64,000 nt of DNA from positions 32,001-96,000 of IMG/VR virus record IMGVR_UViG_3300043772_003377; one strand, 5' to 3'. The translations under genes and the position numbers were made by a program. Below the pieces are notes generated by a model that was given only the letters and a program-made list of their open reading frames with translations, ran no database searches and was not told the DNA's origin. Shown here one piece after another: positions 2 to 38,513 of the stretch. This stretch comes from a virus. How positions within the stretch are numbered: the stretch's first letter is position 1; every line of letters starts with the position of its first letter.

Positions 2-817
2 GTTTCTGCGGCAACAACTACTTCATTCGTTGCAGTATTTAAAAGATACCGTGAATTAGAATTTGAAGATAAAATTGGTGAAGTTTCTTTTGATTTAGAT
101 TCAGTTACCGTTTCTGTTACTGAAAGAAAATTAAGAGCACAATGGTCTCCTGAATTAGCACAAGACGTTGCGGCATTCCACAACATCGATGCTGAAGCTG
201 AATTAACAGCATTATTATCTGAACAAGTTGCGGCCGAAATCGACCGTGAAATTTTACGTGATTTACGTAAAGGTGCGGCTTGGTCATTACGTTGGGATTA
301 CAACGGATGGAGAAGAGTTACAGGATTATCAACTTCTTATACTCAGAAAGATTGGAATCAAACTTTGATTACTGCAATTAACCAATTGTCAGCTCAAATC
401 CACAAGTCAACTCTTCGTGGTGGTGCTAACTGGATCGTTGTATCAAGTGAGATTTCTGCAATCTTCGATGATTTAGAATACTTCCACGTATCTAACGCAT
501 CTCCTGAGCAAGATCAGTATAATATGGGTATTGAAAGAGTAGGTACTTTAGCAGGTCGTTACCAAGTGTATCGTGACCCTTACTTCCCACCAAACACAAT
601 TTTGTTGGGTCATAAAGGAACATCGTTACTTGACACTGGTTACATCTACGCACCTTACGTTCCACTTCAATTAACACCTACAATGTATAATCCGTTTAAT
701 TTCACTCCAATAAAAGGAATAATGACAAGGTATGCTAAGAAAATGGTAAACAACCGTTTCTACGCGAAAATTACCGTAGATGGTGTTCGTACATTTGATT
801 TAAGAGAGTTAAGATAA
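2..817 (+). CDS. gp23: Major capsid protein, T4 gp23-like, 3' part (5' end lies outside the window)
   Basis: Frame 2 is open from base 2. It encodes RKLRAQWSPELAQDVAAFHNIDAEAELTALLSEQVAAEIDREIL and GYIYAPYVPL...FTPIKGIMTRYA, hallmark gp23 motifs, with high-expression codon bias (CGT, ATC, TAC). Confidence 0.95.
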   Translation, partial: VSAATTTSFVAVFKRYRELEFEDKIGEVSFDLDSVTVSVTERKLRAQWSPELAQDVAAFHNIDAEAELTALLSEQVAAEIDREILRDLRKGAAWSLRWDYNGWRRVTGLSTSYTQKDWNQTLITAINQLSAQIHKSTLRGGANWIVVSSEISAIFDDLEYFHVSNASPEQDQYNMGIERVGTLAGRYQVYRDPYFPPNTILLGHKGTSLLDTGYIYAPYVPLQLTPTMYNPFNFTPIKGIMTRYAKKMVNNRFYAKITVDGVRTFDLRELR

Positions 818-840: not shown

Positions 841-870
841 AAAGGTCAGAGAAATCTGACCTTTTTTTTT
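841..870. terminator. Intrinsic terminator, probably bidirectional
   Basis: AAAGGTCAGA-GAAA-TCTGACCTTT hairpin with a T tract after and an A tract before, between convergent genes. Confidence 0.9.
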
Positions 871-2488: not shown

Positions 2489-2639
2489 AATAATATAATT
2501 ATACCTAATAATGGTATAAAATCAAATAGTATGAAAAAATATTTAAATTTCAATAAAATATGGGATTGCGGTTTATTTAAATATAAACTGATTATCAAGT
2601 AGTTAATAATTTATTTTTTTTAAAATCAAATTATTTTTG

Positions 2640-2647
2640 TATATTTG
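2640..2647 (+). promoter_or_regulatory. Bacteroidetes-type -7 promoter element (TAnnTTTG)
   Basis: TATATTTG lies 4 nt upstream of the ATG at 2652; the same geometry occurs at 5656-5663 and 12819-12826. Confidence 0.7.
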
Positions 2648-2651
2648 TATT

Positions 2652-3200
2652 ATGAGAATATTGATAATTTTATTGTTAATTAGTTTAACACTTAATTCAC
2701 AGACATTTACTGAAAAAAACTTTAATGTTCACATTTTTAACAAAAAATTATACCAAAAAATTAACGATTATAGGAAAAAGAACAATATCGATACATTAAT
2801 TTATTCTAATGTTTCTGAAGAATTGGTTTCCAAAATTAATGTTAATAAAATGGTTGAAAAATCATTATGTTATCATCCTGATGTTAATTTTTATGATGGT
2901 AGAAAAATTGGTGAATCATTGTTTATTGAGTATTATAAAAAATTGAATTTGAAGAGGGAGTATCCGGAGGATGATTTTGTCACATATGCCGAAATTTCTG
3001 CCTTTACAAGTAGGACATTTAATAATTATGATGATATGACGGAATATTTTTTAAATTGTTGGATAAACTCACCAAAACATAAAAAAATATTACACATCCC
3101 ACTTTATAATGGATTATGTTCATCATTTATAAAAAAAGGTAAAGAAGGGTTTTACGTCACCTTTGATTTTATCGACATTAGTGTTTTTACCATACATTAA
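2652..3200 (+). CDS. Secreted CAP (SCP/PR-1) domain protein, copy 1
   Basis: Signal peptide MRILIILLLISLTLNS; CAP motifs KINDYRKKNN, YAEI, WINSPKHKKIL. Start moved to the ATG at 2652 because the upstream TTG codons overlap the promoter. Confidence 0.75.
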   Translation: MRILIILLLISLTLNSQTFTEKNFNVHIFNKKLYQKINDYRKKNNIDTLIYSNVSEELVSKINVNKMVEKSLCYHPDVNFYDGRKIGESLFIEYYKKLNLKREYPEDDFVTYAEISAFTSRTFNNYDDMTEYFLNCWINSPKHKKILHIPLYNGLCSSFIKKGKEGFYVTFDFIDISVFTIH

Positions 3201-3302: not shown

Positions 3303-3860
3303 ATGAGAAAATTAATTTTAATTATCGGTTTAATTTATTTAGGGATGATCACTTTTTTGGGGCAAATTAATAATTTTAACGTCAACACATTCAATAAAAA
3401 AGTATATCAAAAAATTAACGATTATAGGAAAAAGAACAATATTGACACATTAATTTATTCCAAGGCATCCGAAGAATTGGTCTCCAAAGTTAATGTTAAT
3501 AAAATGACTGAGAAATCATTATGTTATCATCCTGACGTTAATTTTTACGATTATAGAAAAATTGGTGAATCATTGTTTATTGAGTATTATAAAAAATTGA
3601 ATTTGAAGAGAGAATATCCAGAATTTGATTCTGTTTGGTACGCTGAAATCTCAGCTTTCACAAGTAAAAAATTTAATAATTATGATGAAATGGTTGAGTA
3701 TTTTTTAAATGGTTGGATAAACTCACCAAACCATAGAGAAATTTTAAATACCAACTTTAAATTGTCACACTCAGGTATTTGTTCGACATATATTAAGAAA
3801 GGTAAAGAAGGTTATTATGTATCGTTTAATTTTATTGGTATGATTATTACCAATAATTAA
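3303..3860 (+). CDS. Secreted CAP (SCP/PR-1) domain protein, copy 2 (tandem paralog)
   Basis: Hydrophobic N-terminus; INDYRKKNN and WINSPNHREIL; core nearly identical to copy 1. Confidence 0.75.
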   Translation: MRKLILIIGLIYLGMITFLGQINNFNVNTFNKKVYQKINDYRKKNNIDTLIYSKASEELVSKVNVNKMTEKSLCYHPDVNFYDYRKIGESLFIEYYKKLNLKREYPEFDSVWYAEISAFTSKKFNNYDEMVEYFLNGWINSPNHREILNTNFKLSHSGICSTYIKKGKEGYYVSFNFIGMIITNN

Positions 3861-3861
3861 A

Positions 3862-4980
3862 TTATTTCAAATAATTTGAGACCAATGATTCAAATGAATC
3901 ATTCCCTTTTGAATATTGTCCAGTGTCAGGAGAATATTTCGATAGATTCATAAATTTTTTTAATTCGTTTAAATCCCCTTCACTATCTTTAATGTTCTCT
4001 TTAAAAACCTTATTATTTTTCTCCAAAGAAATCTTATTAATTTTTCCATTTTCCCAATAAAAATTCCATCTGATTTTTGGGTAAACTTCAGTCGAGAATC
4101 GTTCCTTTTCTTTTGCTAAGTCGGTAGATAATTTTTGACTATATTTTATTTCGTATATCGCAATATAATTACCCAAATTTTTAGTATCAGGTGTTTGAAA
4201 TTTACCACCACTATCTTTACATCTTAATGGGGTAACATTAGACGCAAATTCGCCGGCGCCATTTTTTGAATTACAAAAATAACTGCCTTGGATAATATAC
4301 TTCGGATCATATTTTTTTGGTATAACCGTTTCCTTAACATCAGTTTTTATGTAATTAAAAGTTAAATTAACCGATATAAATTGACCTGGCCTTAAATTCG
4401 CCGGTCTATTTGGGGAATTGTCAGTAAATCCACTCGTATTGATAACTACAGATGAGGTTACCTTTGGGACTGAATCATCGACAGAAACTCCAATACTCTT
4501 TAAATAAGTTGTTAATTGTGGTAAAAATATGTCAGCTCTTTGTTTTGCCAAATTTAAATTATTTCTGTAACCATTATCATTTGGTGTTTTTGGATTTTTT
4601 GTGGTTCTATCATTTTCTAAATCATACCCTGTCGCCTTATTTCCCCAACTATTACTGGCCGAACCCATAACCGATATGTTGGTTAATTTTATATTTTTAT
4701 CTTCTAACATTTTTTTTGATTCAGGGTTAGAATTTATTGATGTTAAAATTCCTTCAGTAAATGATTTATAAGATTCCGGTGTTAATGTATTTGAACCTGT
4801 CGAATAAACAACATCTTGAGAATAAGGTATTGATATGGATTGGGTTGTTGTTTCTGTTGTTTTTGTACCCCCTTCAACCCCCTGTTTCGTTACGGTTGTT
4901 GTTTTTTGTTCGGATATGACCTTACCCTTTTCATAATTTACAAGGTATTGTATCCTTAATAATTCTTCTTTAATATTCAT
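3862..4980 (-). CDS. Leader-bearing protein with an OmpA-C-like peptidoglycan-binding domain
   Basis: Leader MNIKEELLRIQYLVNYEKGKVISEQ; YSTGSNTL...ISVMGSAS...NLNLAKQRA resembles the OmpA C-terminal domain. Confidence 0.5.
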   Translation of the reverse strand: MNIKEELLRIQYLVNYEKGKVISEQKTTTVTKQGVEGGTKTTETTTQSISIPYSQDVVYSTGSNTLTPESYKSFTEGILTSINSNPESKKMLEDKNIKLTNISVMGSASNSWGNKATGYDLENDRTTKNPKTPNDNGYRNNLNLAKQRADIFLPQLTTYLKSIGVSVDDSVPKVTSSVVINTSGFTDNSPNRPANLRPGQFISVNLTFNYIKTDVKETVIPKKYDPKYIIQGSYFCNSKNGAGEFASNVTPLRCKDSGGKFQTPDTKNLGNYIAIYEIKYSQKLSTDLAKEKERFSTEVYPKIRWNFYWENGKINKISLEKNNKVFKENIKDSEGDLNELKKFMNLSKYSPDTGQYSKGNDSFESLVSNYLK

Positions 4981-5025
4981 ACCTATAAATATATTATGTT
5001 AGTGTTTAATTTACTATTAATAGGA

Positions 5026-5032
5026 TATTTAT
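5026..5032 (+). promoter_or_regulatory. Candidate phage late promoter TATTTAT (divergent partner on the minus strand at 4985-4991)
   Basis: GATATTTATA lies 6 nt before the ATG at 5039; the motif recurs upstream of many genes in the sense orientation. Confidence 0.55.
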
Positions 5033-5038
5033 AACTAT

Positions 5039-5461
5039 ATGAAACTCAAACAATTAATTAGAGAACATTTATTATTAGAAAAAAGAATAGGTCAGTTGGT
5101 GGATACTCTTGAGGTAACTATGTCCTTCGATTTAATCAAACATATGGGTCATGCAGAACAAAGGTCTATGGGTATTGGTAGGGAAAAAATTGAGGACTAC
5201 GATATGAGGCCTGTAACCAATATGGAAATCAGATACTTCATCGACCTTTTTAAAAGAGATATTGCGGAAAAAATATTAACAGGGGAAATTAAAAATGAAG
5301 AACCTTTTGTCATTAGAAGTTCATCAAAAGGTTTGGCAATTCCTCTTAAACCAATTCATAACGCAGGGACTAATTGGAAATTAGTCGTTTTAACCGTTTG
5401 GAGGGAAAGTAATATTCACAAATTAAAAACATTTGAAGGGCAAGTAATCATTGAGAAATAA
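5039..5461 (+). CDS. Leader-bearing hypothetical protein, possible BECR/RelE-like RNase fold
   Basis: Leader MKLKQLIREHLLLE; HAEQR near the N-terminus and LVVLTVWR near the C-terminus resemble DUF4258-type proteins. Confidence 0.4.
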   Translation: MKLKQLIREHLLLEKRIGQLVDTLEVTMSFDLIKHMGHAEQRSMGIGREKIEDYDMRPVTNMEIRYFIDLFKRDIAEKILTGEIKNEEPFVIRSSSKGLAIPLKPIHNAGTNWKLVVLTVWRESNIHKLKTFEGQVIIEK

Positions 5462-5484
5462 AAAAGGGGACAATCGTCCCCTTT
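5461..5484. terminator. Intrinsic terminator shared by the 5039 gene and the minus-strand RNA
   Basis: AAAAAGGGGAC-AATC-GTCCCCTTT hairpin; the U tract is longest on the minus strand. Confidence 0.85.
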
Positions 5485-5652
5485 GGTTTTGAAATTTTTG
5501 TCTGAGCTTGTGATCTAATCGGTTATCCGCGTAATGAACAAAGGTACCTTCAAATTATTCCATCTTAACGATTGAGGTTTACCACACCTTGAGTTGATCG
5601 TCACTCATTCCGCCGAGTTGTTAGGGTAATCTCGGTTCAACCCTTTTTCATT
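5461..5652 (-). ncRNA. Candidate structured non-coding RNA of about 190 nt with tandem pseudoknots
   Basis: GC-richer ORF-free interval bounded by a TATATTTG promoter (5656-5663) and a terminator. Crossing stems AGGGU/ACCCU and CCGAG/CUCGG, plus UGAGU/ACUCA, AGGU/ACCU and ACGAU/AUCGU. Confidence 0.6.
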
Positions 5653-5655
5653 ATA

Positions 5656-5663
5656 CAAATATA
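5656..5663 (-). promoter_or_regulatory. Bacteroidetes-type -7 promoter element driving the candidate ncRNA
   Basis: TATATTTG on the minus strand. Confidence 0.65.
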
Positions 5664-5683
5664 CAAACTTTTTTTGATTATTC

Positions 5684-6037
5684 CTAATCTTCAATAAAAT
5701 AAATTTGAATGTTAATGTAATTAACACCCCTCATATTAAGATTTGTATTTGTCATAATAAGATAATTTTTTAATTCAAATTCAAATTCTTTGTGATTAAA
5801 TTTAACATCAGAACAATGTTCAAATGAGTAGTTTGACAAATGAAAATCATCCATTTGGTCGTAACAAGTTCTGTCAATATGTTTTGATATAAAATCATCG
5901 CCAAGGGTTATTGTAACATCCACCTGAAGATGAGAAAAATCTTCTCTATATCTTGTAACATATATATTTTCAAAAAACGGATATTGTTTTTTTAAAATGA
6001 TGTTTAATGTCTTTTCGTATCTTTCTTTTTCTGTCAT
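5684..6037 (-). CDS. Hypothetical protein
   Basis: 117-aa ORF preceded by TATTTAT (plus-strand 6044-6050). Confidence 0.7.
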   Translation of the reverse strand: MTEKERYEKTLNIILKKQYPFFENIYVTRYREDFSHLQVDVTITLGDDFISKHIDRTCYDQMDDFHLSNYSFEHCSDVKFNHKEFEFELKNYLIMTNTNLNMRGVNYINIQIYFIED

Positions 6038-6100
6038 TTTTTTATAAATATTCTATTTTTTTATTAATTGAATATATTTATAAATAAATTGAATTTTCAT

Positions 6101-7585
6101 ATGACGACTATTGAGGGAGTATCGAGTAATTTAAAATATCTTTTTACGGATAAAGGTATTATACAATTAGGTGATTATTATAAAACAAATAATAAAAAAA
6201 ACATTATAGAATATTCATTTGAAAATCTCCATATCGCGCTAGACATATTAAAAGAACATAAAGAACTTTATTACAAATTAAACAAAATTTCAGTTACAGA
6301 ATACGTTAATTCTTCAAGAAAATTTCTTTATGAATTAATGGAAACTTTCAATTTAAAAGATAATATCAGTATTATTAAAGAATGGGAAGAAAAGTTCGGT
6401 TCAAAACTTTTATTACTAAATGAATCGACCGATAAATTATTAATAGAAGAAAGAGTTAATAATTCTTGGGAGTCAATAAGAACTATGTTGGAAGAAGCGA
6501 CTTGGAATCCTTTTAGTTCTGATTTTTATTCTAAAGAAAATTTTAAAGGATTGGGGCAAGACATTAAAGGTGCGGTTAAAAGAGTCGATAAATTTGCGAA
6601 AGATACTGCGAAAAGTGCGGTTGATTGGACTAAAGAACAAGGGAGACAAATATCTCAAAAAGGTCTTGGGGGGTATCTTAAAGATAAGGCTAAATCAGTT
6701 TTTAATAGTGTTAAAAATGCCGTTGCTAAAGTTTGGAAATGTCTTACTAATAATCCTATAGAGTGTATGATGGAGGGTCTTAGAACTGCCGCGTTTTCGG
6801 CTTTAGGTATGGGAGCGTTGACCGCATTAACCGTGGCCTTTCCTGGTGTTGGAAATATCCCTGATGCAATTATATTTGGTTCTTTATTGATTTGGGATAT
6901 ATATAAAGCGTTAAGTGGAAAATATGAAAGTGGTGAATATAAATGGAGTTGGACGGATATTATTGTTGATGCGGTTTGTTTAATACTACCGGCGTTAGGA
7001 GGGGCGTTAAAGTCCGCTCTTTCAGGTATTAAAGGTTTTGGGGAACTGGCCGTTAAAGCCTCAACTAAAGGAGGTGTTTTTGCGAAGGCTGTTAATACGA
7101 TTAAAAATGGTATTGGAACTATAATAAGTTTAATAGGTAAAGCAGCCGCTTGGATAGGTCAAAAATTAGGTATTAAATGGTTAAGCGAATTTGGGGGTAA
7201 AGCTCAGAGTTTTATGAAAAATAGTGCTGATGAATTAATTACTAAAGTAAATCAAGGTGTTTCTAAAGTAAAAGAAATACATGGAGTTGCAAAAGAAAAA
7301 TTGGCAACCGCAGGAAAAGAAATCAAACAATTCTCAAAAACTTTACAAACTATGACACCAAAAAGAGTCATTATTAAAAAATCCGGAACCGCGGTATTAT
7401 TAACCGCTGCATTTTGTGCTGCTTTAGGGGTGGACGATCCTTGGATGTGTCAACATAAAGTTGAAAGTGGTCAAGTTAGTGAGGAAGAAATTAATAAAAT
7501 ACAAAACGCAATAAATTCTAAAGGATTTCAAAACCAACTAGACCAATTGTCTGTTGATGATGCGGAAAAATTAGGATTAATATAA
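6101..7585 (+). CDS. Hypothetical protein with multiple Gly/Ala-rich hydrophobic helices (possible injected membrane-active protein)
   Basis: Internal LLNE, LIEE and MLEE sites, then hydrophobic segments AAFSALGMGALTALTVAFPG, AIIFGSLLIW and IIVDAVCLILPALGG. The ATG at 6101 lies downstream of TATTTAT (6075-6081). Confidence 0.55.
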   Translation: MTTIEGVSSNLKYLFTDKGIIQLGDYYKTNNKKNIIEYSFENLHIALDILKEHKELYYKLNKISVTEYVNSSRKFLYELMETFNLKDNISIIKEWEEKFGSKLLLLNESTDKLLIEERVNNSWESIRTMLEEATWNPFSSDFYSKENFKGLGQDIKGAVKRVDKFAKDTAKSAVDWTKEQGRQISQKGLGGYLKDKAKSVFNSVKNAVAKVWKCLTNNPIECMMEGLRTAAFSALGMGALTALTVAFPGVGNIPDAIIFGSLLIWDIYKALSGKYESGEYKWSWTDIIVDAVCLILPALGGALKSALSGIKGFGELAVKASTKGGVFAKAVNTIKNGIGTIISLIGKAAAWIGQKLGIKWLSEFGGKAQSFMKNSADELITKVNQGVSKVKEIHGVAKEKLATAGKEIKQFSKTLQTMTPKRVIIKKSGTAVLLTAAFCAALGVDDPWMCQHKVESGQVSEEEINKIQNAINSKGFQNQLDQLSVDDAEKLGLI

Positions 7586-7611
7586 TAAAAATAAAAATAA
7601 AAATAAAAATA
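7586..7611 (+). repeat. (TAAAAA)n microsatellite forming an A-rich translation leader
   Basis: TAAAAA repeated about 4.3 times directly before the ATG at 7612. Confidence 0.7.
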
Positions 7612-8871
7612 ATGAATAAAAATTTAATTATTGAAGAACTTAATAGAGTTAGGTTGTTAATGAATTATGATACAAAAAAAACTTTATCAGAAAATAAAGA
7701 TAAATATTTTTTTGGTGATATTTTAAATGAGGGAACTGGTAACGAAATGATTGAATTGTTATTTAAAGACATTGCAAAAACTGAGGGTTCTGCGGGTTTA
7801 AGAAGTGCGATTGAGTCGGCAATTAAAGATTTTGGAGGTATTAATATTAAGAGTGATAGAAACATTTTTACATTATCTAAAGATGTCGATGAAATTGTTA
7901 AAGCTATGGAAACTGGAGCAATTGCTTCTGCGACTGAAGCTGGTAAGTTAGCCAAATCACTATTTAAAAATGGGGGTAGTATTGAAGTGAAAACCGCCGG
8001 AGCCGACGCAATTGTCGGTATGACATCATTCACAAAAAAATATGTGGGAATGACTAAAGAGGAGATGATTGAGGCTTTAAGTGCTAAATACTCTAAATCT
8101 GAAGCCGAGACTTTATATAATAGATTTCAGCGTAAAAATAAAATACCTGAACCTGTTAAACCTGAACCCGTTAAACCTGAACCTGCCAAAGTTGAGCCTG
8201 TTGATCCTGTAACTTGGAAGACTAAATTAAAAAAATATTTAAAATATGGGTTAATATCGGGAGGTTTATTGCTTTTGTGGCAATGGTTAACATCTGATAG
8301 TAGTCCTTATCCTGATTGTATTAAAGACAAACTAACTGAAGAAGATGCTAAGAAGGTTGGTGATATGGGTCAGGAAGGTTTAATTATTATCACAAAAACT
8401 AATAATCCTGAAATTGATGCCGATGGCGGAGGTATTTTTTATGAGAACGGTACTTTCCAAAGTGCTGGGGGTAAAATTAAAGGTAAATGGTCTGGGGAAG
8501 ATGAAATATTGGTAACATCAGCTGACGGTAAAACTTATAATATATCTTGTGGTAAAGGTGATGAAGATGTTGTAACAACTACCACAACTATTAGTGGAGG
8601 AAAATGGAGAAAATGTAGTGGGACTTATAGTAGAGGATGTTATGAAACTGAACAAGACGGACCTATACATCAAGTTCAAACTTGTATAGGTACAACGTCT
8701 GATGGTAAATTTGGTCCTAAAACCGAGGCGGCTTTAAAACAAAAAACAGGAAAAACATCTTTTACTGATGCGGATATTGAGAAAATTTGTGGCGGTGCTC
8801 AAGAGGATGAAAAAGGTGATGATTGGAAAAATATAGAGCCTGAAACAGGGGATGATAGTGCGGAGGGTTAA
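7612..8871 (+). CDS. Leader-bearing protein with a transmembrane helix and a C-terminal peptidoglycan-binding-like motif
   Basis: Leader MNKNLIIEELNRVRLLMNYDTKKTLSEN; PEPVK linker repeats; TM segment YGLISGGLLLLWQWL; VQTCIGTTSDGKFGPKTEAAL. Confidence 0.6.
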   Translation: MNKNLIIEELNRVRLLMNYDTKKTLSENKDKYFFGDILNEGTGNEMIELLFKDIAKTEGSAGLRSAIESAIKDFGGINIKSDRNIFTLSKDVDEIVKAMETGAIASATEAGKLAKSLFKNGGSIEVKTAGADAIVGMTSFTKKYVGMTKEEMIEALSAKYSKSEAETLYNRFQRKNKIPEPVKPEPVKPEPAKVEPVDPVTWKTKLKKYLKYGLISGGLLLLWQWLTSDSSPYPDCIKDKLTEEDAKKVGDMGQEGLIIITKTNNPEIDADGGGIFYENGTFQSAGGKIKGKWSGEDEILVTSADGKTYNISCGKGDEDVVTTTTTISGGKWRKCSGTYSRGCYETEQDGPIHQVQTCIGTTSDGKFGPKTEAALKQKTGKTSFTDADIEKICGGAQEDEKGDDWKNIEPETGDDSAEG

Positions 8872-8912
8872 ATATATTAAAAATAATAATTAAATGGTAG
8901 AATTAAAATATT

Positions 8913-9971
8913 ATGAAAAAAATAATTAAAGAGCAGAATGAACATAGTATAGATCTAGTTAAAGGTAGGGATATGTATAAATGTCCTTTCTTAATTGGTG
9001 CCGAATTAGGAGATAGTCAAAAATTTGGTAAAGGTGTTATGAGAAGAATCGCGAACAGTGATAGTCCTAAGAAAAATTATTTAGTTGGTGACACTTTAAT
9101 TATAAAGTCAAACTATACTTATGATGTTATAAGAAACAATTCGTATGTTAAACAAGGACTTCCTTGGAAATGTTCTACTATGGGAACGATTGAGGTTAAA
9201 CCTCAATTATCCGCAGACCAACAAAGAAGTGTTGACGATAAGATTAGTTTTTATAAATCTGAAGACGGCCAACCTTTATATCAAAAAGAAACTCCTACTG
9301 CGGATCAAATGAATGACTTTGAAAAAATTAATTTAAAAGATGACCCAAATTTTAAAGAATTAATAAAGTTCGATTATTTTATTTGGAAAAGAAAAGGTTT
9401 AAGACAAACTGAAGGTCCCCAACAAAGGGCAATTATTAAAACTTTTACAGATCAAGGTTATCTTGATAAGGGAGGTAAAATAAATCCTGCTGAGGAAGAT
9501 ATGTACGAAGTTATTGACCTTAGCACCGTATATCCTACAGAATTTACTAAACCTTATAAAGTATATAGAAAATTAGAATCTGCGGATACTAATAAAATAG
9601 TAAAAGAACTTGATTCTTTAGTAAGACAAAGAAATTATGGAGATAGAGAATTTTGTAGAAATTTTATTAGAAACTATGATAATGCGAGAAAATTAAAAGC
9701 ACCTGTAAGTGGTCCTCAAATATTAAAATGGAAATCAGGTGTTAAAATGTGTAAACAAAAAAATACAAATTTCTTAGATTTAAATATAACTAACAGAATT
9801 CTAAAAAAATTAGAGACCGATACCGGAAAATATGGTATTTCAGATAACGCGACTCCAGCAAACCAACAATCTATGAACGAATCTTTTTATAATTCAAATA
9901 AAATTTTAAAATCAAGAATCCATAATATGTTACTGGAGACTTATTATAAAAAAAAATATAACAAAAAATGA
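8913..9971 (+). CDS. Hypothetical protein of the leader family
   Basis: Starts MKKIIKEQ; C-terminal SMNES...MLLET; two internal similar units (Y/GYxxxxP...YExIDL). Confidence 0.6.
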   Translation: MKKIIKEQNEHSIDLVKGRDMYKCPFLIGAELGDSQKFGKGVMRRIANSDSPKKNYLVGDTLIIKSNYTYDVIRNNSYVKQGLPWKCSTMGTIEVKPQLSADQQRSVDDKISFYKSEDGQPLYQKETPTADQMNDFEKINLKDDPNFKELIKFDYFIWKRKGLRQTEGPQQRAIIKTFTDQGYLDKGGKINPAEEDMYEVIDLSTVYPTEFTKPYKVYRKLESADTNKIVKELDSLVRQRNYGDREFCRNFIRNYDNARKLKAPVSGPQILKWKSGVKMCKQKNTNFLDLNITNRILKKLETDTGKYGISDNATPANQQSMNESFYNSNKILKSRIHNMLLETYYKKKYNKK

Positions 9972-11110
9972 AAAATTTATTTATAATAAACGAAGATGAG
10001 AGAAAAAGAATTTTAGGTCTTCACGAAAATGCAACTAAAAAACAATATTTAGGTGAAGCCAAAATAACTGGTGACCAATATAGCGGAAGAAATATTAAAT
10101 TTGATTCTGAAGATCCGATCACCCAAAGTATTTTTAATCTTGTTCACAATGTATCTGATATTGATGAGACTAAATTAGTTAAGGAAATTCTTAAAATAAA
10201 AGACAAAAATACATTTGTTAAAATTAATAACGAATTAAAGAATGTTTTTAAAATGATGGGGTCTAAATATACTGGTTTGGATAGTGTAATTGCAGATGCG
10301 ATGGATTATGATTACGACCAATATGATACGTATAAAGTATTAGAACCTCACCTAAAAAAAATAGGAATTAATACAGATAGATTGGGGTATGACGACTACG
10401 TTTTCAAAAATCTACCAACTAATACAAGTATGGCGGCAAATCCTGACCAAAATAAAAAAACAGATACTTTAACACCGGCTCAAAGAGAAATGAGTTTCGC
10501 AAGTAAATATGGTCAAACCTATCCTTGTGTTGTTGGTGGTACTAAATTAAAATACACTAAAAATGATGGAGGTTTTTATTATAAACTTGGTGATGTTGCG
10601 TATTATATAAATGGTGAGTATAAAAACCTTACAACAGGATCCAAAGGAACTTTTAAATGTAATGGTAAACAAATTTCATTGGATGGTAAAACAACCGCAA
10701 ATCCTGATGTAACTCCAAAACAAAGAGTTGTGCCAACAACTAGCGACGAATTATTACAAGGTAAAGGGTATTTAAAATTAAATGATAAAAATGATTTGGT
10801 AAAACTAGTTCAAAATCAATTAATAAGTGCTGGAGAAACCGTTACACCATCAGGAATTTTTGACAAGACCACATATGATGCGGTTAAATCATTCCAAAGT
10901 AAACAAACCCCACCATTAAAGACCGATGGAATTGTAGGTAAAGGTACTTGGTTAATATTATCTAAAGTAAAGTCAGAAATGATGACACCTAAAGAAGTTA
11001 CATTAACTAATCCACAACAAAATAGTTCCACAACAAACGATAAATCGGTAACAAGTAATTCAACACAACCAACACCTACAAGTAATCAACCTGATGAAGC
11101 CGAAGGATAA
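9968..11110 (+). CDS. Leader-bearing protein with a PG_binding_1 peptidoglycan-binding domain
   Basis: Leader MKNLFIINEDERKRILGLHE...YLGEA; LKLNDKNDLVKLVQNQL...SGIFDKTTYDAVKSFQ...LKTDGIVGKGTW is a canonical PG-binding domain. Confidence 0.75.
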   Translation: MKNLFIINEDERKRILGLHENATKKQYLGEAKITGDQYSGRNIKFDSEDPITQSIFNLVHNVSDIDETKLVKEILKIKDKNTFVKINNELKNVFKMMGSKYTGLDSVIADAMDYDYDQYDTYKVLEPHLKKIGINTDRLGYDDYVFKNLPTNTSMAANPDQNKKTDTLTPAQREMSFASKYGQTYPCVVGGTKLKYTKNDGGFYYKLGDVAYYINGEYKNLTTGSKGTFKCNGKQISLDGKTTANPDVTPKQRVVPTTSDELLQGKGYLKLNDKNDLVKLVQNQLISAGETVTPSGIFDKTTYDAVKSFQSKQTPPLKTDGIVGKGTWLILSKVKSEMMTPKEVTLTNPQQNSSTTNDKSVTSNSTQPTPTSNQPDEAEG

Positions 11111-11111
11111 T

Positions 11112-11324
11112 TTATTTTTCTTTAGATAAGACCCTTATAGATTTAGAAATAATTTCTGTCTCCCCAATTGAAAACGCGCCTGAATGATAGGCGTGTTTTA
11201 CTGCTTGTATAAGTATGTATTTTGAAAACTCTTCATTCATATTATTATATAATGTATCAAAATGGTCTTCACTTAATAAGGGTATTGAATTAAATAACTT
11301 TCCGTAAACTTTTTCTTCTTCCAT
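11112..11324 (-). CDS. Hypothetical protein
   Basis: 70-aa ORF filling the gap between two plus-strand genes. Confidence 0.65.
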   Translation of the reverse strand: MEEEKVYGKLFNSIPLLSEDHFDTLYNNMNEEFSKYILIQAVKHAYHSGAFSIGETEIISKSIRVLSKEK

Positions 11325-11370
11325 TTTATATAGTTTGTTATATTTATAATAATAAGAACTTTTTATTTAA

Positions 11371-12150
11371 ATGTTAAGAGATTTAATAAAACAAATATTG
11401 AGAGAAGCGACATCTGATAGTACAGGTGCGAGAGGATCGTATGTACTTCCATTACAACCTGGTTTAAGAAAATTTAAAAAAAATGAATTAAAACCTTTTA
11501 CCGAAGAATTATCTGAAATAGATAACGCCGAAAAATATTGGGATAGTTTGGATGGTGATTTAACTAAAACAAAAAATAAAAGATTATCTGAAACCGATAT
11601 TGATAGAATAGTTAAAAATATTTTAGAATCGGATTCTTCCGTGTCTGCCGGTGAATATAGTGGTCCTATAGAGTTAGGTATAAAAAAGTGGTCTAAAAGT
11701 GAATTAGGACCTTTTTATGAGTTTGTTGATACAGAACACAATCATAAGAAGGTTAAGAGTACCACTAAGAATAATATAGAAAGAGAAGTGGGAATGTGGG
11801 AAAAAGGTAAAGATGGTACTTATGATATTGATACCCACCCTGTTCATACCATAAAAGAAGATTTAGCCGTTTGGTTTGGTACTAAAAAGAAACCTAAAGG
11901 TAGTTCACAACCTAAAGGTCCTTGGGTTAATATATGTAAAAAGGTTGATGGTAAACATCCACCTTGTGGTAGACCTGAAGCAACTGATAAAGCGTATCCT
12001 AAATGTAGGGCAGCTGGTGTGGCAGGTAAAATGTCAGATTCTCAAAAGAGAGCGGCGTGTAATCAAAAAAGAAGGGCTGAAAAATCAAACCCTAAACCTG
12101 GTACAGGAAACAAACCTAAAATGGTAAGTTACAAACCTAGAAAGAAATAA
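11371..12150 (+). CDS. Leader-bearing protein with a basic Cys-containing C-terminal domain
   Basis: MLRDLIKQILREA; duplicated S-S-GxYxxPxxxGxxK unit; C-terminal WF...WVNIC...PCGR...YPKCR module of a type I recall from large phages. Confidence 0.65.
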   Translation: MLRDLIKQILREATSDSTGARGSYVLPLQPGLRKFKKNELKPFTEELSEIDNAEKYWDSLDGDLTKTKNKRLSETDIDRIVKNILESDSSVSAGEYSGPIELGIKKWSKSELGPFYEFVDTEHNHKKVKSTTKNNIEREVGMWEKGKDGTYDIDTHPVHTIKEDLAVWFGTKKKPKGSSQPKGPWVNICKKVDGKHPPCGRPEATDKAYPKCRAAGVAGKMSDSQKRAACNQKRRAEKSNPKPGTGNKPKMVSYKPRKK

Positions 12151-12414
12151 TTATAAACTATCTTTCTTTGTTTCCTCTACTCTAACTTCTTCTTTTACTT
12201 CAGTTTTTTTTGGTTTTTTTTCATTAACACGAATTGTGTCATAAAAAATTTTTTTAACTTTAACGGTATCATATACCACTTTTTTATCAACACTGGTGTA
12301 ATCTTTATCTTTTTTAGGGCCTATTATACTGAGTGTCGACATTAAAATTATAAGCAAAATAGGTGTACCAATTAATGTTAATCCTGTTAAGAATATCTTA
12401 TCAAATTTGTTCAT
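12151..12414 (-). CDS. Small membrane-anchored protein
   Basis: N-terminal TM helix followed by YDTV/YDTI repeats typical of Bacteroidetes-associated proteins. Confidence 0.65.
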   Translation of the reverse strand: MNKFDKIFLTGLTLIGTPILLIILMSTLSIIGPKKDKDYTSVDKKVVYDTVKVKKIFYDTIRVNEKKPKKTEVKEEVRVEETKKDSL

Positions 12415-12814
12415 TTGTGATGTTTTTAAAAATGTTACTTAATGAATGTTTTACGTTAGACCTGATTTCGTCTTCCATTTTCTTTCTACGAGTTTCTACC
12501 TCATTATCAAATGAATTGTATAACCTATCACTTGTTTTAGGTGTTAGTTCGATTGTATAACTATAATTGTGATTTACGATGGTGATGACTCTTTTATCCA
12601 TAATAATAAAGATTTGGTCATCATAACTCTTAATATACCTTTTTCCTGAGATTGGGGAAATTAGTAATTTTGTGGATTCCTTGTTAATCAGGTTCTTACA
12701 AATGCCGATACATTCATACTCATACTCTGATTTAACATACTCTTCTTTGGGGGTTGTTTTTTTTATGAAGGTAATCCCTACTTTTTGGAAGAACCTCTTT
12801 ATTTTGTGTTTCAT
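12401..12814 (-). CDS. Hypothetical protein
   Basis: The ATG at 12814 lies 4 nt after TATCTTTG. Confidence 0.7.
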   Translation of the reverse strand: MKHKIKRFFQKVGITFIKKTTPKEEYVKSEYEYECIGICKNLINKESTKLLISPISGKRYIKSYDDQIFIIMDKRVITIVNHNYSYTIELTPKTSDRLYNSFDNEVETRRKKMEDEIRSNVKHSLSNIFKNITNEQI

Positions 12815-12818
12815 AATA

Positions 12819-12826
12819 CAAAGATA
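12819..12826 (-). promoter_or_regulatory. Bacteroidetes-type -7 promoter element
   Basis: TATCTTTG on the minus strand, 4 nt before the ATG. Confidence 0.7.
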
Positions 12827-12860
12827 CAACTTTTTTTAGAAACTACAAAAAAAAATTAAA

Positions 12861-13340
12861 TTATTTTTTCTTCCATTTACCACCCTTTTCTTTATATCTT
12901 TTTGCGGCGGCACCATTACAATAAGCGCTTGGACATACTTTGTATCTTGATTTAGCCCAAGATAAGCATTGAGACCATAATTTCGGGTTTGTTGGTACAT
13001 TTTTTTTCTTTTTACCTTCTTCCATCATTTCGGGTTCAGAAGGAACCATAACCTCATCTTCCATTTTATGATAACGTTTTGTTTCATTCATAATGAAGTC
13101 AAAAACTTGGTCAAGGTTATTTTTGGATTCTGCTATGTGATCTTGAGCCCAATCGTGACCATTTTCCAATAACTCAGTAACTTCATTTTTATCCAAATTT
13201 AATAACAATTCACATTGTCTTTTCATTTGTTCTAAATTTGAAAAGAACATATATCGAGATGAATCATCATCGTGAGTCTCATTTAGAACTCTTTGAACTA
13301 TCTTAGTTAAGTCCGATTCTTTTAGTTTAATGACTCTCAT
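12861..13340 (-). CDS. Leader-bearing protein with a basic C-terminal module (DUF5872-like)
   Basis: MRVIKLKESDLTKIVQRVLNE; C-terminal PTNPKLW...PSAYCNGAAAKRYKEKGGKWK. Confidence 0.65.
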   Translation of the reverse strand: MRVIKLKESDLTKIVQRVLNETHDDDSSRYMFFSNLEQMKRQCELLLNLDKNEVTELLENGHDWAQDHIAESKNNLDQVFDFIMNETKRYHKMEDEVMVPSEPEMMEEGKKKKNVPTNPKLWSQCLSWAKSRYKVCPSAYCNGAAAKRYKEKGGKWKKK

Positions 13341-13642
13341 TATTCTTCGTCTTTTAACATAGTTGTATCCAACATATTTAAATCCAATAAACGTTTGGTT
13401 AAAGTTTTTCTACCTAACTTTCTTAAATATCTAATAACAATAGGAGGAACATCGTCAGAGTACTTTCCAAATAAAGTCGCAATTTCATCTTCTTTTGGTG
13501 TGGATTCATAATCCGCTCTTGATCTTGATGATCTAATACCTCTAGGACCTTTTTCATAAGGAGTCTCGTCTTCACTTTCTTTGATTACTCTTTTTACGAT
13601 TTGTTCTAAATCTGATTCAGTAAGTTTAACAATTTTTTTCAT
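13340..13642 (-). CDS. Leader-bearing hypothetical protein
   Basis: MKKIVKLTESDLEQIVKRVIKE leader. Confidence 0.7.
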   Translation of the reverse strand: MKKIVKLTESDLEQIVKRVIKESEDETPYEKGPRGIRSSRSRADYESTPKEDEIATLFGKYSDDVPPIVIRYLRKLGRKTLTKRLLDLNMLDTTMLKDEE

Positions 13643-13643
13643 A

Positions 13644-14030
13644 TTAATTTAATGTTTGTTTTGATAACGTTTCTATTTTATTTATCTCATCGGCATATTT
13701 TTTAAAATGATTGGTTGCCAAATCAATATGACTAACTAATTCATCTTTTTTATCTTGAGGCATTTTAGATGAATTTATATTATTTTTTAATGAATCTAAA
13801 TCAATCATTATTTTATGATTTGGCTCATCTAATTTTTTTAATTTAGACATTAATCTTTGTAAACTACTTAAATGTTTGAAGTAAGGAAATCCGTGACCTC
13901 TAAAAAATCCTTTAGCCCCTTGATACAAGTCTTTAACGTCTCCAAATAAATCTTCATTTAAGTTTGGATTATTAACTTCATTTACCAATTTTTGTAATTG
14001 TTTTTCCGTTATTTTAACTGAAGTCTTCAT
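13644..14030 (-). CDS. Leader-bearing hypothetical protein
   Basis: MKTSVKITEKQLQKLVNE...LNED; TATTTAT upstream (14035-14041). Confidence 0.7.
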   Translation of the reverse strand: MKTSVKITEKQLQKLVNEVNNPNLNEDLFGDVKDLYQGAKGFFRGHGFPYFKHLSSLQRLMSKLKKLDEPNHKIMIDLDSLKNNINSSKMPQDKKDELVSHIDLATNHFKKYADEINKIETLSKQTLN

Positions 14031-31135: not shown

Positions 31136-31696
31136 CTATAGTTTTTCAAAAACCATTATAGTGTTTCTAAAATAAGAACATTTATCTTCAGGAACTAGTC
31201 TTGCATCTTCGCTCAACCCCTTTAAATACCTAAAACCTAAATCTTCAATTAATGGAAGTATCTCATCATTATTAAGTTCATTAAAATGCCCATACCCCCC
31301 TTGACCTCTAACCGCCCAAGATAGGATTAAATACTTATCGCAATTATTTTTTAGATTATTCAGTAATATTTGTTGATATTCTTTAGGTATATGTTCACCC
31401 ACTTCTAAACAAATAACAATTCCTTTTTTATCCAATACAATTGGTTGGGCTAAATTTAATTTTAAAATGTTAAACTCGTAATCAGTTTTCATAGGGTCAG
31501 CTTCAACACCTGTAATATTTTTAAACCCCCTATTATGTAAATCATTTAGATAATAACCTAAACCACATCCAAAATCATAAATTTGATGTTCTTTATAATC
31601 ATTTAAAAAATTAGAAATCCAATTACTTAGATTCTCACTATGTATATGATGTGAAACCGAATTTTCTTTTAACCAATAACCTGTGTTGTGTATCAT
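31136..31696 (-). CDS. Class I SAM-dependent methyltransferase
   Basis: IYDFGCGLG; ICLEVGEHIP; GQGGYGHFNE. Confidence 0.85.
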   Translation of the reverse strand: MIHNTGYWLKENSVSHHIHSENLSNWISNFLNDYKEHQIYDFGCGLGYYLNDLHNRGFKNITGVEADPMKTDYEFNILKLNLAQPIVLDKKGIVICLEVGEHIPKEYQQILLNNLKNNCDKYLILSWAVRGQGGYGHFNELNNDEILPLIEDLGFRYLKGLSEDARLVPEDKCSYFRNTIMVFEKL

Positions 31697-31720
31697 ATTT
31701 TATTTTATTTTATTTTATTG

Positions 31721-37530: not shown

Positions 37531-38112
37531 TTATTGGACTTTCTTAATCTTAGTAACCTTACCTTCAAAAATATGTTTCCCAACTCTAAATGAAAATACA
37601 TCATTAGTTTTTGAGGTCGACTCTACTAATAATCCATTTTCAGATAAAACTTCCTCAACGGTTTCTCTAACTATTGATTTAATAGTTTCCGCATCAATTC
37701 CAATATTAGTTTTCTGAACAGGTTGGGATTTATTAGTTTGCTGACCAGCAGCATTTGTATTCATAAGTCTTGCCGCTTTCTCAACTAAATCATTAGAGAG
37801 TGATGGACTTGTAGAAGTATTCGGTTGATTAATTGGGTGTTCGATCATTAATCTTTTAATTTCATCGGGTAATTTCGATGACATAACTCTTTCCTCAGTT
37901 ATTGGTTGGGGACTTATAGTCTTTTTATTTTCAATTGCAAATTCATCAGGTAACGAATATTTTGCTGATGGTGCGTTAAATTCTTGTACTTCAGGTGTTG
38001 ATAACTCTTCATTCATAGGTAATTCATTTCCTGATCTTGGCATTTGCTTATGTTTATCCATTATTTGTTTGGATATCATTAATTTTTTAATTAAATCGTT
38101 TTCGTTTGTCAT
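37531..38112 (-). CDS. Hypothetical protein
   Basis: 193 aa; SKLPDEIKRLMIEHPI; IKSIVRETVEEVLSE. Confidence 0.7.
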   Translation of the reverse strand: MTNENDLIKKLMISKQIMDKHKQMPRSGNELPMNEELSTPEVQEFNAPSAKYSLPDEFAIENKKTISPQPITEERVMSSKLPDEIKRLMIEHPINQPNTSTSPSLSNDLVEKAARLMNTNAAGQQTNKSQPVQKTNIGIDAETIKSIVRETVEEVLSENGLLVESTSKTNDVFSFRVGKHIFEGKVTKIKKVQ

Positions 38113-38513
38113 TATTCCGCCATTCTTGTATCGTCAAAAGACGTGTTTATTATTACTCTTGTCATTCCTTTATCACCTGTTTTATTATATCCAGGTCTAA
38201 TCTCACTAAAATCTTCACCTGAAGGTTTAAAAGATAGAATTTTGTCAACTCTAAACAATCTCCACCCCGGTAAAGGTTGTTCTCCCGTATAATTAGTATG
38301 GGAAGATCCTTCAGAATCCCACGCTCTTAAAACAGGATTATCTGCTTTACTATAACCAAAACAAACGGGTTCAATTTCTCTCAAACCTCTTCCTCCTGGC
38401 TCATCTCCATCATAGTAAATTATCACTTTTTTTCTTTTTTTAATAGCGTCAACGATAGAATCGATTGATGCTACTTCTAAAATAAGTGATTTTGCTATGT
38501 TGTAAAGTTTCAT
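38112..38513 (-). CDS. Stand-alone WYL-domain protein with an ILE-ending leader
   Basis: IVDAIKKRKKVIIYY...REIEPVCFG...VLRAW...GWRLFRVDKILS matches the WYL pattern. Confidence 0.8.
   Translation of the reverse strand: MKLYNIAKSLILEVASIDSIVDAIKKRKKVIIYYDGDEPGGRGLREIEPVCFGYSKADNPVLRAWDSEGSSHTNYTGEQPLPGWRLFRVDKILSFKPSGEDFSEIRPGYNKTGDKGMTRVIINTSFDDTRMAE

What the first reader, a model, noticed from the sequence alone, without database searches (positions are those of the whole stretch)
3862..14030. Family of unrelated proteins sharing an amphipathic leader ending in [LIV]-x-E: candidate capsid-targeting tag for an injected arsenal
Seen: MNIKEELLRIQYLVNYEKGKVISE (4980), MKLKQLIREHLLLE (5039), MNKNLIIEELNRVRLLMNYDTKKTLSE (7612), MKKIIKE (8913), MKNLFIINEDERKRILGLHE..YLGE (9968), MLRDLIKQILRE (11371), MRVIKLKESDLTKIVQRVLNE (13340), MKKIVKLTESDLEQIVKRVIKE (13642), MKTSVKITEKQLQKLVNE (14030) and MKLYNIAKSLILE (38513). 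The downstream domains are otherwise diverse, and most of these units follow the TATTTAT motif. Established: the T4 prohead protease gp21 cleaves after (I/L)-x-E, and T4 internal proteins use a short N-terminal capsid-targeting sequence and are injected with the DNA. Inference: a modular tag-plus-cargo system in at least three leader subtypes that loads many effectors into the head.
Basis: partly seen in the sequence, partly recalled or inferred. Interest (0 to 1): 0.8.

Follow-up and report, generated by a model that had tools for sequence, protein, structure and literature searches.

The report
Capsid-loading leader tags, jumbo phage
An uncultured giant T4-like phage starts many unrelated late proteins with a few short peptide tags that end in the cutting motif of its head protease. 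These are most likely an enlarged, untested version of phage T4's "load into the capsid, then cut off" signal.

Summary
All ten N-termini are at the stated coordinates. Seven clearly belong to recurrent leader families and one (8913) weakly; 5039 and 38513 match none. The bare motif [LIV]-x-E is not enriched (9/14 vs 35/89, p=0.09); the signal lies in homology.

Family B (MKKIIRLTESDLTRIVKRVIKE|) is conserved for 22 residues, and conservation collapses after an almost invariant Glu. It heads 128 unrelated cargo clusters in 79 fetched loci and matches 8,659 protein clusters world-wide. Complete 257-296 kb relatives carry 11-15 B genes each. In one, 56 of 376 ORFs carry a leader of some type.

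Support for the capsid-targeting reading:
- The contig encodes T4-type portal, Peptidase_S77 protease and gp23-type capsid protein, whose site (INE|A) aligns with T4's LTE|A.
- Most leader subtypes end in [LI]-x-E.
- Cargo bodies are modestly depleted in [LI]-x-E.
- Leader genes share a promoter-like motif with head genes.

Packaging, cleavage and injection are untested. Internal leader copies, the 15% share of genes and a conserved ClpC-like ATPase leave rivals open. Earlier agents of this scan reached the same reading on other genomes. Verdict: a new, much enlarged variant of the T4 capsid-targeting-sequence system; confidence about 0.55.

The parts
13577..13642 (-). B-type leader (22 aa, MKKIVKLTESDLEQIVKRVIKE|S) of the 100-aa protein 13340..13642
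   Evidence: E 1.6e-20 against leaders of other contigs.
13278..13340 (-). B-type leader (21 aa, ...KLKESDLTKIVQRVLNE|T) of the 159-aa protein 12861..13340. Its C-terminus is a weak DUF5872-like Cys motif.
   Evidence: E 8.4e-12.
13977..14030 (-). B2-type leader (18 aa, MKTSVKITEKQLQKLVNE|V) of the 128-aa protein 13644..14030. It is the first gene of the run 14030->13642->13340 behind a TATTTAT motif.
   Evidence: The homologous cargo carries A3- or B-type leaders in L012 and L013.
7612..7692 (+). A1-type leader (27 aa, ...EELNRVRLLMNYDTKKTLSE|N) of the 419-aa protein 7612..8871. The body has a helical domain, a Pro-rich linker, a TM helix and a PG_binding-like C-terminal domain.
   Evidence: (E 6.6e-18).
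4909..4980 (-). A1'-type leader (24 aa, ...EELLRIQYLVNYEKGKVISE|Q) of the 372-aa protein 3862..4980
   Evidence: E 6.5e-8.
9968..10057 (+). A3-type leader (30 aa, ...INEDERKRILGLHENATKKQYLGE|A) of the 380-aa protein 9968..11110, which has a PG_binding_1 domain at residues 275-330
   Evidence: E 1.2e-22.
11371..11406 (+). C-type leader (12 aa, MLRDLIKQILRE|ATS) of the 259-aa protein 11371..12150
   Evidence: LIKQILRE identical in L032, E 1.8e-4; C-type community, n=69.
11581..11628 (+). Internal B-type leader copy (residues 71-86, RLSETDIDRIVKNILE|S) inside the same protein. It begins a second copy of the following ~45-aa module.
   Evidence: Multi-leader proteins also occur elsewhere.
8913..8933 (+). 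Short possible leader MKKIIKE|Q of the 352-aa protein 8913..9971; weak
   Evidence: E 4.9e-4 only.
6068..7585 (+). Leaderless 494-505-aa Gly/hydrophobic-rich protein. It is the first gene of the run 6101->7612->8913->9968 behind a TATTTAT motif.
5039..5461 (+).
   Evidence: no hit.
38112..38513 (-).
2..817 (+). 3' end of the gp23-family major capsid gene (genome 31018-32817). The head module lies just upstream of the window: portal, [LI]xE-rich core-like protein, S77 protease, acidic scaffold-like protein.

Best explanation
The leaders are capsid-targeting propeptides of a T4-type head-assembly system.

Shown:
- The phage has a T4-like head module, including a Peptidase_S77 (gp21-family) prohead protease.
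- Several families of short N-terminal peptides are fused to hundreds of unrelated, mostly small proteins.
- Selection acts on the peptide, not on the DNA.
- Conservation stops at a Glu that has I/L two residues before it, which is the T4 gp21 cutting rule.

Inferred:
- The leader helix docks the protein onto the scaffold core while the prohead assembles.
- The protease then cuts after the Glu.
- The freed cargo stays in the head and leaves with the DNA.
- Cell-wall enzymes and binders among the cargo would act in the periplasm. Cytoplasmic cargo (GNAT, PIN, an ECF sigma factor, many unknown small proteins) would act on host takeover or counter-defence.
For: 1. Head module. Portal_T4 (E 5e-76), Peptidase_S77 (E 5e-23, above cut-off) and Gp23 (E 9e-73) lie just upstream of the window. 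The protease keeps the ELNHP, GISSRGxGS and D..V..PS blocks when aligned with T4 gp21.

2. Same specificity is likely. The capsid protein has FLINE|ATSEG aligned to T4 gp23 FLTE|AEIGG. The protein between portal and protease has the highest [LI]xE density of the contig (12 in 227 aa = 0.053, against a background of 0.012). T4 gp22 has 0.059.

3. B leader. 235 of 243 hits are N-terminal. Positions 1-22 carry 3-4.3 bits each. E22 is present in 165/169 and position 20 is I/L in 154/169. Information drops to about 1 bit after E22.

4. Most other subtypes (A1, A3, C and minor ones) also end their conserved block in [LI]-x-E. B2 has no conserved end, only ITE near residue 7.

5. Selection on the peptide. 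Synonymous codons at invariant residues follow genome usage. Third-position identity is 0.62 against 0.81 at positions 1 and 2.

6. Cargo diversity and modularity. 167 B cargos fall into 128 clusters, 99 of them singletons. Homologous cargos carry different leader types in different genomes.

7. Motif avoidance. At cluster level, [LI]xE observed/expected is 0.94 in 243 leader cargos and 1.10 in 367 non-leader proteins (ratio 0.86, bootstrap CI 0.76-0.97). [LI]xD, [LI]xQ and [LI]xN are enriched instead.

8. Co-expression. In a complete relative, 37/56 leader genes have TATTTAT upstream against 72/320 other ORFs (odds ratio 6.7, p=4e-10). The motif also precedes terminase, portal, protease, scaffold and capsid genes.

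9. Co-occurrence. S77 is present in 4/4 complete and 4/5 partial leader-bearing genomes.

10. Precedent. T4 internal proteins share only an N-terminal capsid-targeting sequence that gp21 removes (PMC3012670, PMC5694885, PMC12373910).
Against: - There is no direct evidence that any of these proteins is in a virion, cut or injected.
- The closest cultured phages (Flavobacterium phage immuto, Microcystis phage Mel-JY01) lack the leaders. No record in the phage genome collection searched matched convincingly, so no proteome can be consulted.
- Leader copies also occur inside proteins: window 11371, 8/243 hits in the loci, and two or three copies in several top database hits. A pure N-terminal address does not need this.
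- About 15% of the ORFs of a complete genome carry a leader, far more than any known packaged set that uses a shared tag.
- One cargo is an ECF sigma factor, which need not be packaged.
- The motif depletion is modest, and cargos still hold many [LI]xE sites.
- A-type leaders are not measurably amphipathic, and AF2 gives the 7612 leader low confidence.
- A ClpC-like AAA+ ATPase is conserved in every leader genome tested, so another recognition partner cannot be excluded.
Confidence: 0.55

Rival explanations
1. The leader is a recognition tag for another phage or host machine. One candidate is the conserved phage ClpC-like unfoldase, which could time degradation or unfolding. Alternatively it is a docking or oligomerisation helix that gathers many late proteins on a hub other than the prohead core.
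For: - A ClpC-like double AAA+ protein with a VGF loop (which I take from memory to be the ClpP-docking loop) is conserved at 62-72% identity in all five leader genomes tested.
- Internal and repeated leader copies fit a binding motif as well as a cleavable address.
- The cargo includes a sigma factor.
Against: - It explains neither the invariant Glu with I/L at P3 at the exact end of conservation in most subtypes nor the specific depletion of [LI]xE in cargo bodies.
- I know of no precedent for a conserved 22-residue helical N-degron of this kind.
Confidence: 0.15
2. The leader is an export signal that sends proteins out of the cytoplasm late in infection, for example a mimic of the double-glycine leader used by peptidase-containing ABC exporters.
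For: - Positions L7, T8, D11, L12 and I15 of the B leader match the pattern LSxxELxxIxGG. I recalled this pattern from memory and did not test it.
- Many recognisable cargos act on the cell wall: PG_binding_1, lysozyme, SLT, LysM, M23, NlpC/P60.
Against: - There is no Gly-Gly at the boundary; K-R stands there instead.
- Cargos reach 900 aa and include GNAT, PIN, SET and a sigma factor.
- The leader is charged and is not a Sec or Tat signal.
- Virion ejection also delivers proteins to the periplasm.
Confidence: 0.05
3. The leader is cut by the head protease but mainly acts as an inhibitory propeptide that keeps enzymes inactive until maturation. Alternatively it is only a recombination handle that moves cargo genes between loci, with no addressing role.
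For: - Homologous cargos carry different leader types.
- Leader genes lie in tandem arrays on one strand.
- Another reader of this scan noted DNA-level leader duplication (e1-5342368).
Against: - Synonymous variation shows that the peptide, not the DNA, is conserved.
- Most cargos are small proteins of about 110 aa with no recognisable enzyme domain, so zymogen control cannot be general.
- A protease that works only inside proheads, as in T4, still requires the substrate to get there.
Confidence: 0.1
4. For 5039, 38513 and perhaps 8913, the resemblance is a chance product of a Lys/Glu/Ile/Leu-rich proteome.
For: - [LIV]-x-E falls within residues 8-30 in 39% of other N-termini and in 29% of internal windows.
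- These N-termini have no hit, or only a weak one, in the leader library.
Against: 8913 lies inside a leader-gene run and starts MKKII like the B and B2 leaders.
Confidence: 0.8

Closest known systems
Phage T4 capsid targeting sequence (CTS) on internal proteins IPI, IPII, IPIII and Alt, removed by prohead protease gp21
   Same: - A short N-terminal peptide is shared by otherwise unrelated proteins.
- It ends in (L/I)-x-E.
- The phage has a gp20/gp21/gp22-like/gp23 head module.
- The cargo set is diverse and fast-evolving (PMC3012670, PMC5694885, PMC12373910).
   Different: - The leaders are longer: 12-30 aa against 6-20 in T4.
- There are several sequence families rather than one.
- A genome has dozens of tagged genes (56/376 ORFs) rather than 3-10.
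- Leader copies also occur inside proteins.
- Nothing has been tested experimentally.
N-terminal propeptides of head and ejection proteins of giant phages phiKZ and SPN3US (S80 proteases; cleavage after S/A/G-x-E or A-x-E)
   Same: Giant myophages load many head and ejection proteins, cut them after a Glu in a short motif, and have paralogues that share identical N-terminal stretches (PMC5694885).
   Different: Those propeptides are mostly longer than 100 aa and are not one portable tag. The protease family (S80) and its P3 preference differ.
Encapsulation peptides of bacterial microcompartments and cargo-loading peptides of encapsulins
   Same: A short helix plus a flexible linker addresses varied cargo to the inside of a protein shell. 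This comparison is from general knowledge and was not tested here.
   Different: The shell proteins are unrelated to T4-type capsids, there is no proteolytic removal, and there is no sequence similarity.
Double-glycine leader peptides of bacteriocins and RiPP precursors
   Same: An N-terminal helix with a similar spacing of hydrophobic and acidic residues. The pattern is recalled from memory.
   Different: There is no Gly-Gly cleavage site, the cargos are large and varied, and the context is a phage late operon.

Membership tests
T4-type capsid-targeting propeptide system | The phage encodes a gp21-family (Peptidase_S77) prohead protease within a T4-like head module | tested here: met
   PF03420 E 4.9e-23, 82 bits against a cut-off of 27. 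Portal_T4 and Gp23 flank it. Conserved blocks align with T4 gp21.
T4-type capsid-targeting propeptide system | The tag sits at the extreme N-terminus of the precursor | tested here: met
   235/243 B hits start within the first 12 residues. A minority of internal copies exists.
T4-type capsid-targeting propeptide system | The tag ends in the protease motif (L/I)-x-E | tested here: met
   B: E22 in 165/169 and I/L at position 20 in 154/169. A1, A3, C and minor types end likewise. B2 has no conserved end.
T4-type capsid-targeting propeptide system | The same tag is carried by proteins with unrelated mature parts | tested here: met
   The window cargos are unrelated. There are 128 cargo clusters among 167 B cargos.
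T4-type capsid-targeting propeptide system | The capsid protein and core proteins of the same phage carry such sites | tested here: met
   The capsid-protein site INE|A aligns with T4 LTE|A. The core-like protein has 4.5 times the background [LI]xE density.
T4-type capsid-targeting propeptide system | The tag is removed by the protease inside the prohead | not testable with these tools
   This needs virion or prohead mass spectrometry. The only indirect support is the depletion of [LI]xE in cargo.
T4-type capsid-targeting propeptide system | The cargo is present in mature heads and is injected with the DNA | not testable with these tools
   No cultured carrier of the leaders was found.
T4-type capsid-targeting propeptide system | Sequence homology of the tag to the T4 CTS | not tested
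   The T4 ip genes were not fetched. Only the T4 gp24 propeptide (MAKINELLRE|S) was read; it loosely resembles the C type (…ILRE|).
Double-glycine leader peptides | A Gly-Gly (or Gly-Ala/Ser) cleavage site at the end of the leader | tested here: not met
   The positions after I15-V16 are K/R-R, and the conserved end is I/L-x-E.

The most novel reading that the evidence does not exclude
A whole lineage of 250-300 kb T4-like phages, probably of Bacteroidota, uses a small 'address code' of interchangeable leader peptides. With it they would load some fifty different proteins per genome into the head and inject them, including cell-wall enzymes, acetyltransferases, nucleases and even a sigma factor. 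The injected proteome, and therefore many counter-defence and takeover factors, could then be read directly from sequence in thousands of uncultured phages.
Probability: 0.3. Interest if true: 0.8.

Novelty: new variant of a known kind. Interest (0 to 1): 0.6.

Why it matters
If the leaders do address proteins to the head, three things follow.
- A simple sequence rule would pick out the injected proteins of a large group of uncultured giant phages. That is more than 8,600 protein clusters for one leader type alone, and most are of unknown function. This is the class in which T4's anti-restriction proteins were found.
- It would show that the T4 targeting trick scales from a handful of proteins to about 15% of a genome.
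- It would offer a ready-made tag for loading foreign proteins into capsids of phages of Bacteroidota.

If the leaders do something else, then a 22-residue peptide conserved on thousands of unrelated phage proteins is an unexplained signal worth solving.

Tried and rejected
- A leader-only word search (region 1-40 of the 7612 protein) found only the query.
- Alignments A2 and A3 were too diverse for the search for related loci.
- DNA and protein searches of the phage genome collection found no relative of the window. The only leader hit was at E = 1.
- The ESM Atlas gave only unnamed viral clusters below 0.8.
- Foldseek of the 7612 model gave nothing below E 0.4 apart from local PG-binding-domain matches.
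- The AF2 model has low confidence over the leader.
- A text search of the paper library for the leader strings found nothing.
- The bare [LIV]-x-E enrichment test was not significant.
- Weak similarities were noted but not counted as evidence: the scaffold-like N-terminus to an A2 leader (E 0.003), capsid-protein 'KVIKED' to the end of a B leader (E 0.026), both, and residues 78-87 of the core-like protein to the B profile (E 0.1).
- Cargo pI (median 5.5) does not resemble the basic T4 IPII and IPIII and was not informative.

Full report
**What the window is.** The window is bases 32001-96000 of a 104.5-kb IMG/VR viral contig that CheckV rates 33% complete. GC is about 30%. Just upstream of the window lies a T4-type head module:
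- large terminase;
- Portal_T4 (E 5e-76);
- a 227-aa protein;
- a Peptidase_S77 prohead protease (PF03420, E 4.9e-23, 82 bits against a cut-off of 27);
- an acidic 462-aa scaffold-like protein;
- a 599-aa Gp23-family capsid protein (E 9e-73) that ends at window base 817.

The order matches T4 genes 20-67/68-21-22-23, even to a homing endonuclease after the capsid gene. The nearest isolates by capsid protein are Flavobacterium phage immuto (40% identity), an uncultured 484-kb phage, Microcystis phage Mel-JY01 and Rak2-like jumbo phages. There is no DNA-level relative among the records of the phage genome collection.

**Checking the observation.** All ten N-termini exist as written. The bodies behind them are mutually unrelated by BLASTP. 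Pfam and PHROGs recognise almost nothing in them: a PG_binding_1 domain in 9968, a weak DUF5872-like tail in 12861 and phrog_23735 in 11371.

[LIV]-x-E within residues 8-30 occurs in 9/14 genes of the region, 35/89 other genes and 24/84 internal windows (p=0.09).

What is real is homology between leaders. I compared each N-terminus with a library of leaders taken only from other contigs:

| Start | Leader type | E-value |
|---|---|---|
| 13642 | B | 1.6e-20 |
| 13340 | B | 8.4e-12 |
| 14030 | B2 | 1.8e-4 |
| 7612 | A1 | 6.6e-18 |
| 9968 | A3 | 1.2e-22 |
| 4980 | A1' | 6.5e-8 |
| 11371 | C | 1.8e-4 |
| 8913 | weak | 4.9e-4 |
| 5039 | none | no hit |
| 38513 | none | no hit |

The 11371 protein also holds an internal B-type copy at residues 71-86, at the start of a duplicated module.

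**Scale of the families.** Homologues of the 7612 protein in the 5.8-billion-protein collection share the leader (...R.KLLM.Y...KTL.E|N) on differing bodies. One body has an SLT domain.

The 79 fetched loci have GC of 28-36%. In these loci plus the own contig (2128 ORFs), an iterated profile finds 243 B leaders. Of these, 235 are at the N-terminus, and up to nine sit in tandem in one 20-kb locus.

An exhaustive profile search of 1.84 billion cluster representatives found 8,659 clusters at E<=0.001 and 631 at E<=1e-10. Four 96-100% complete relatives of 257-296 kb hold 11-15 B genes each. Contigs found through A leaders also hold B leaders.

Clustering on N-terminal-only similarity joins 458 of 1697 unique ORFs of the loci into one network. 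Its communities are B, B2 (MKIIITESQL...), C (MNLQEEIRRILRE|E), A3 (...EEEKKRIL..H/Y......L.E|) and smaller ones. In one complete 296-kb genome, 56 of 376 ORFs carry such a leader.

**Anatomy of the tag.** In 169 distinct B leaders, positions 1-22 carry 3-4.3 bits each. E22 is present in 165 and position 20 is I or L in 154. Information falls to about 1 bit from position 23 on. A1, A3, C and the minor types likewise end their conserved block in [LI]-x-E, and A1 often has a second such site 8-10 residues later. B2 has no conserved end; its only such site is ITE near residue 7.

Invariant residues use synonymous codons in genome-like proportions. Third positions are 62% identical against 81% for positions 1 and 2, so selection acts on the peptide. 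B and C leaders are strongly amphipathic as helices; A leaders are not. AF2 on the 7612 family gives a low-confidence helix at residues 3-17 and a disordered linker at 27-46. Three folded parts follow, the last resembling a PG-binding domain.

**Cargo.** The 167 distinct B cargos fall into 128 BLASTP clusters, 99 of them singletons, with a median length of 110 aa. Pfam names few of them:
- cell-wall domains: PG_binding_1, phage lysozyme, SLT, LysM, M23, NlpC/P60;
- cytoplasmic enzymes: GNAT, PIN, SET and hydrolases;
- one ECF-type sigma factor behind a B2 leader.

Homologous cargos carry different leader types in different genomes. The cargo of window gene 13644, for example, has B2 here, A3 in L012 and B-like in L013, so tag and cargo are exchangeable modules.

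**Link to the protease.**
- The own protease aligns with T4 gp21 through the ELNHP, GISSRGxGS and D..V..PS blocks.
- The capsid protein has FLINE|ATSEG aligned with T4 gp23 FLTE|AEIGG, the known cleavage site (PMC5694885).
- The 227-aa protein between portal and protease has the highest [LI]xE density of the contig (0.053, against a background of 0.012). The scaffold-like protein has 0.028. T4 gp22 and gp68 have 0.059 and 0.035.
- S77 is present in 4/4 complete and 4/5 partial leader genomes.
With one representative per cargo cluster, [LI]xE observed/expected is 0.94 in 243 leader cargos and 1.10 in 367 leaderless proteins (ratio 0.86, bootstrap 95% interval 0.76-0.97). [LI]xD, [LI]xQ and [LI]xN are relatively enriched in the cargos, and [LI]xK and Ex[LI] do not differ. 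The effect is modest but specific.

**Expression.** A motif (A/G)TATTTATA lies sense-oriented within 60 nt upstream of 34/103 genes, against 13 antisense. These include portal, core-like, protease, scaffold-like and tail genes, and the first gene of every leader-gene run in the window. In the complete relative it precedes 37/56 leader genes against 72/320 other ORFs (odds ratio 6.7, p=4e-10). It also precedes the terminase, portal, protease, scaffold and capsid genes.

**Interpretation.** The best reading is an enlarged T4-type capsid-targeting system. A leader helix docks on the assembling core. The S77 protease cuts after the Glu. The cargo stays in the head and leaves with the DNA.

Published work establishes the model in T4. 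Internal proteins share only a CTS, gp21 removes it, foreign proteins can be packaged with it, and Ip1-3 are injected anti-restriction factors (PMC3012670, PMC5694885, PMC12373910).

Virion delivery also explains why the cargo mixes periplasm-acting cell-wall domains with cytoplasmic enzymes. An export signal would not explain that.

**Why confidence stays near 0.55.**
- Nothing shows packaging, cleavage or injection.
- No cultured phage carries the leaders.
- Leader copies occur inside proteins, up to three per protein.
- 15% of a genome is far beyond any known tagged head proteome.
- A ClpC-like AAA+ ATPase is conserved in every leader genome tested and could be an alternative reader of the tag.

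**Novelty.** The principle is known from T4. This set of leader families, its size and its spread in uncultured large phages were not found in the paper library. Earlier agents of this scan reached the same reading on other genomes, so within the scan this is a repeat finding on new DNA.

Noticed in passing
genome 24682-25365 (L003:5682-6365), just upstream of the window: A 227-aa protein between portal and protease has 12 [LI]xE sites, the highest density in the contig and similar to T4 scaffold gp22. It is a candidate core or scaffold protein that the protease would degrade.
   Followed up: partly
genome 4468-6498 (L002), outside the window: A ClpC-like double AAA+ ATPase with a VGF loop is conserved at 62-72% identity in all leader-bearing jumbo genomes tested. 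In three of them the first ~74 residues are encoded 1.6-3.4 kb away, which suggests an inserted element or a split gene.
   Followed up: partly
P0023, P0025, P0026, P0033, P0034, P0118: These proteins carry two or three complete B leaders, each followed by a different body. They look like leader-cargo-leader-cargo polyproteins.
   Followed up: partly
L062:8466-9041: A 192-aa ECF-type sigma factor (Sigma70_r2 and r4_2) sits behind a B2-type leader, MKIIITESQYSRIVDIKE.
   Followed up: partly
window 869-2488 (-): An HNH homing endonuclease (phrog_3339, E 6e-100) lies directly after the capsid gene. T4 has segD in the same position after gene 23.
   Followed up: no
window 2637-3200 and 3303-3860 (+): Two tandem paralogous 185-aa proteins have N-terminal signal-peptide-like segments. 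The first sits behind a TAnnTTTG-type sequence, which resembles Bacteroidota host promoters (from memory). The same motif lies upstream of 12401-12829. This hints at a Bacteroidota host.
   Followed up: no
G003 (268.7-kb complete relative), 31291-31773 and 233494-233940: This genome has two Peptidase_S77 homologues.
   Followed up: no
G001 (for example 78977, 116814, 166712, 239222, 239708, 241754, 242222, 283644): At least eight dispersed paralogues of a 141-149-aa protein all start MKIIITE[NS]QYK. One of them sits between the core-like gene and the protease gene.
   Followed up: no
window 11371-12150 (+) and 12861-13340 (-): Both proteins end in a Lys- and Cys-rich tail (phrog_23735 and a weak DUF5872 hit). 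11371 also holds a duplicated module, G.Y..P...G..K..K.EL.PF.E, after each leader. The same module follows a leader in L073:18959-19669.
   Followed up: no
window 40051-42882 (+): A 943-aa protein has a C-terminal papain-like peptidase domain (Peptidase_C1, phrog_16701). It stands at the head of the tail-fibre-like gene block behind a TATTTAT motif.
   Followed up: no
L035:14732-15250 and two other leader proteins: Pfam DUF6576 (a 47-position model) matches residues 17-48, right after a B2 leader, in three leader proteins.
   Followed up: no
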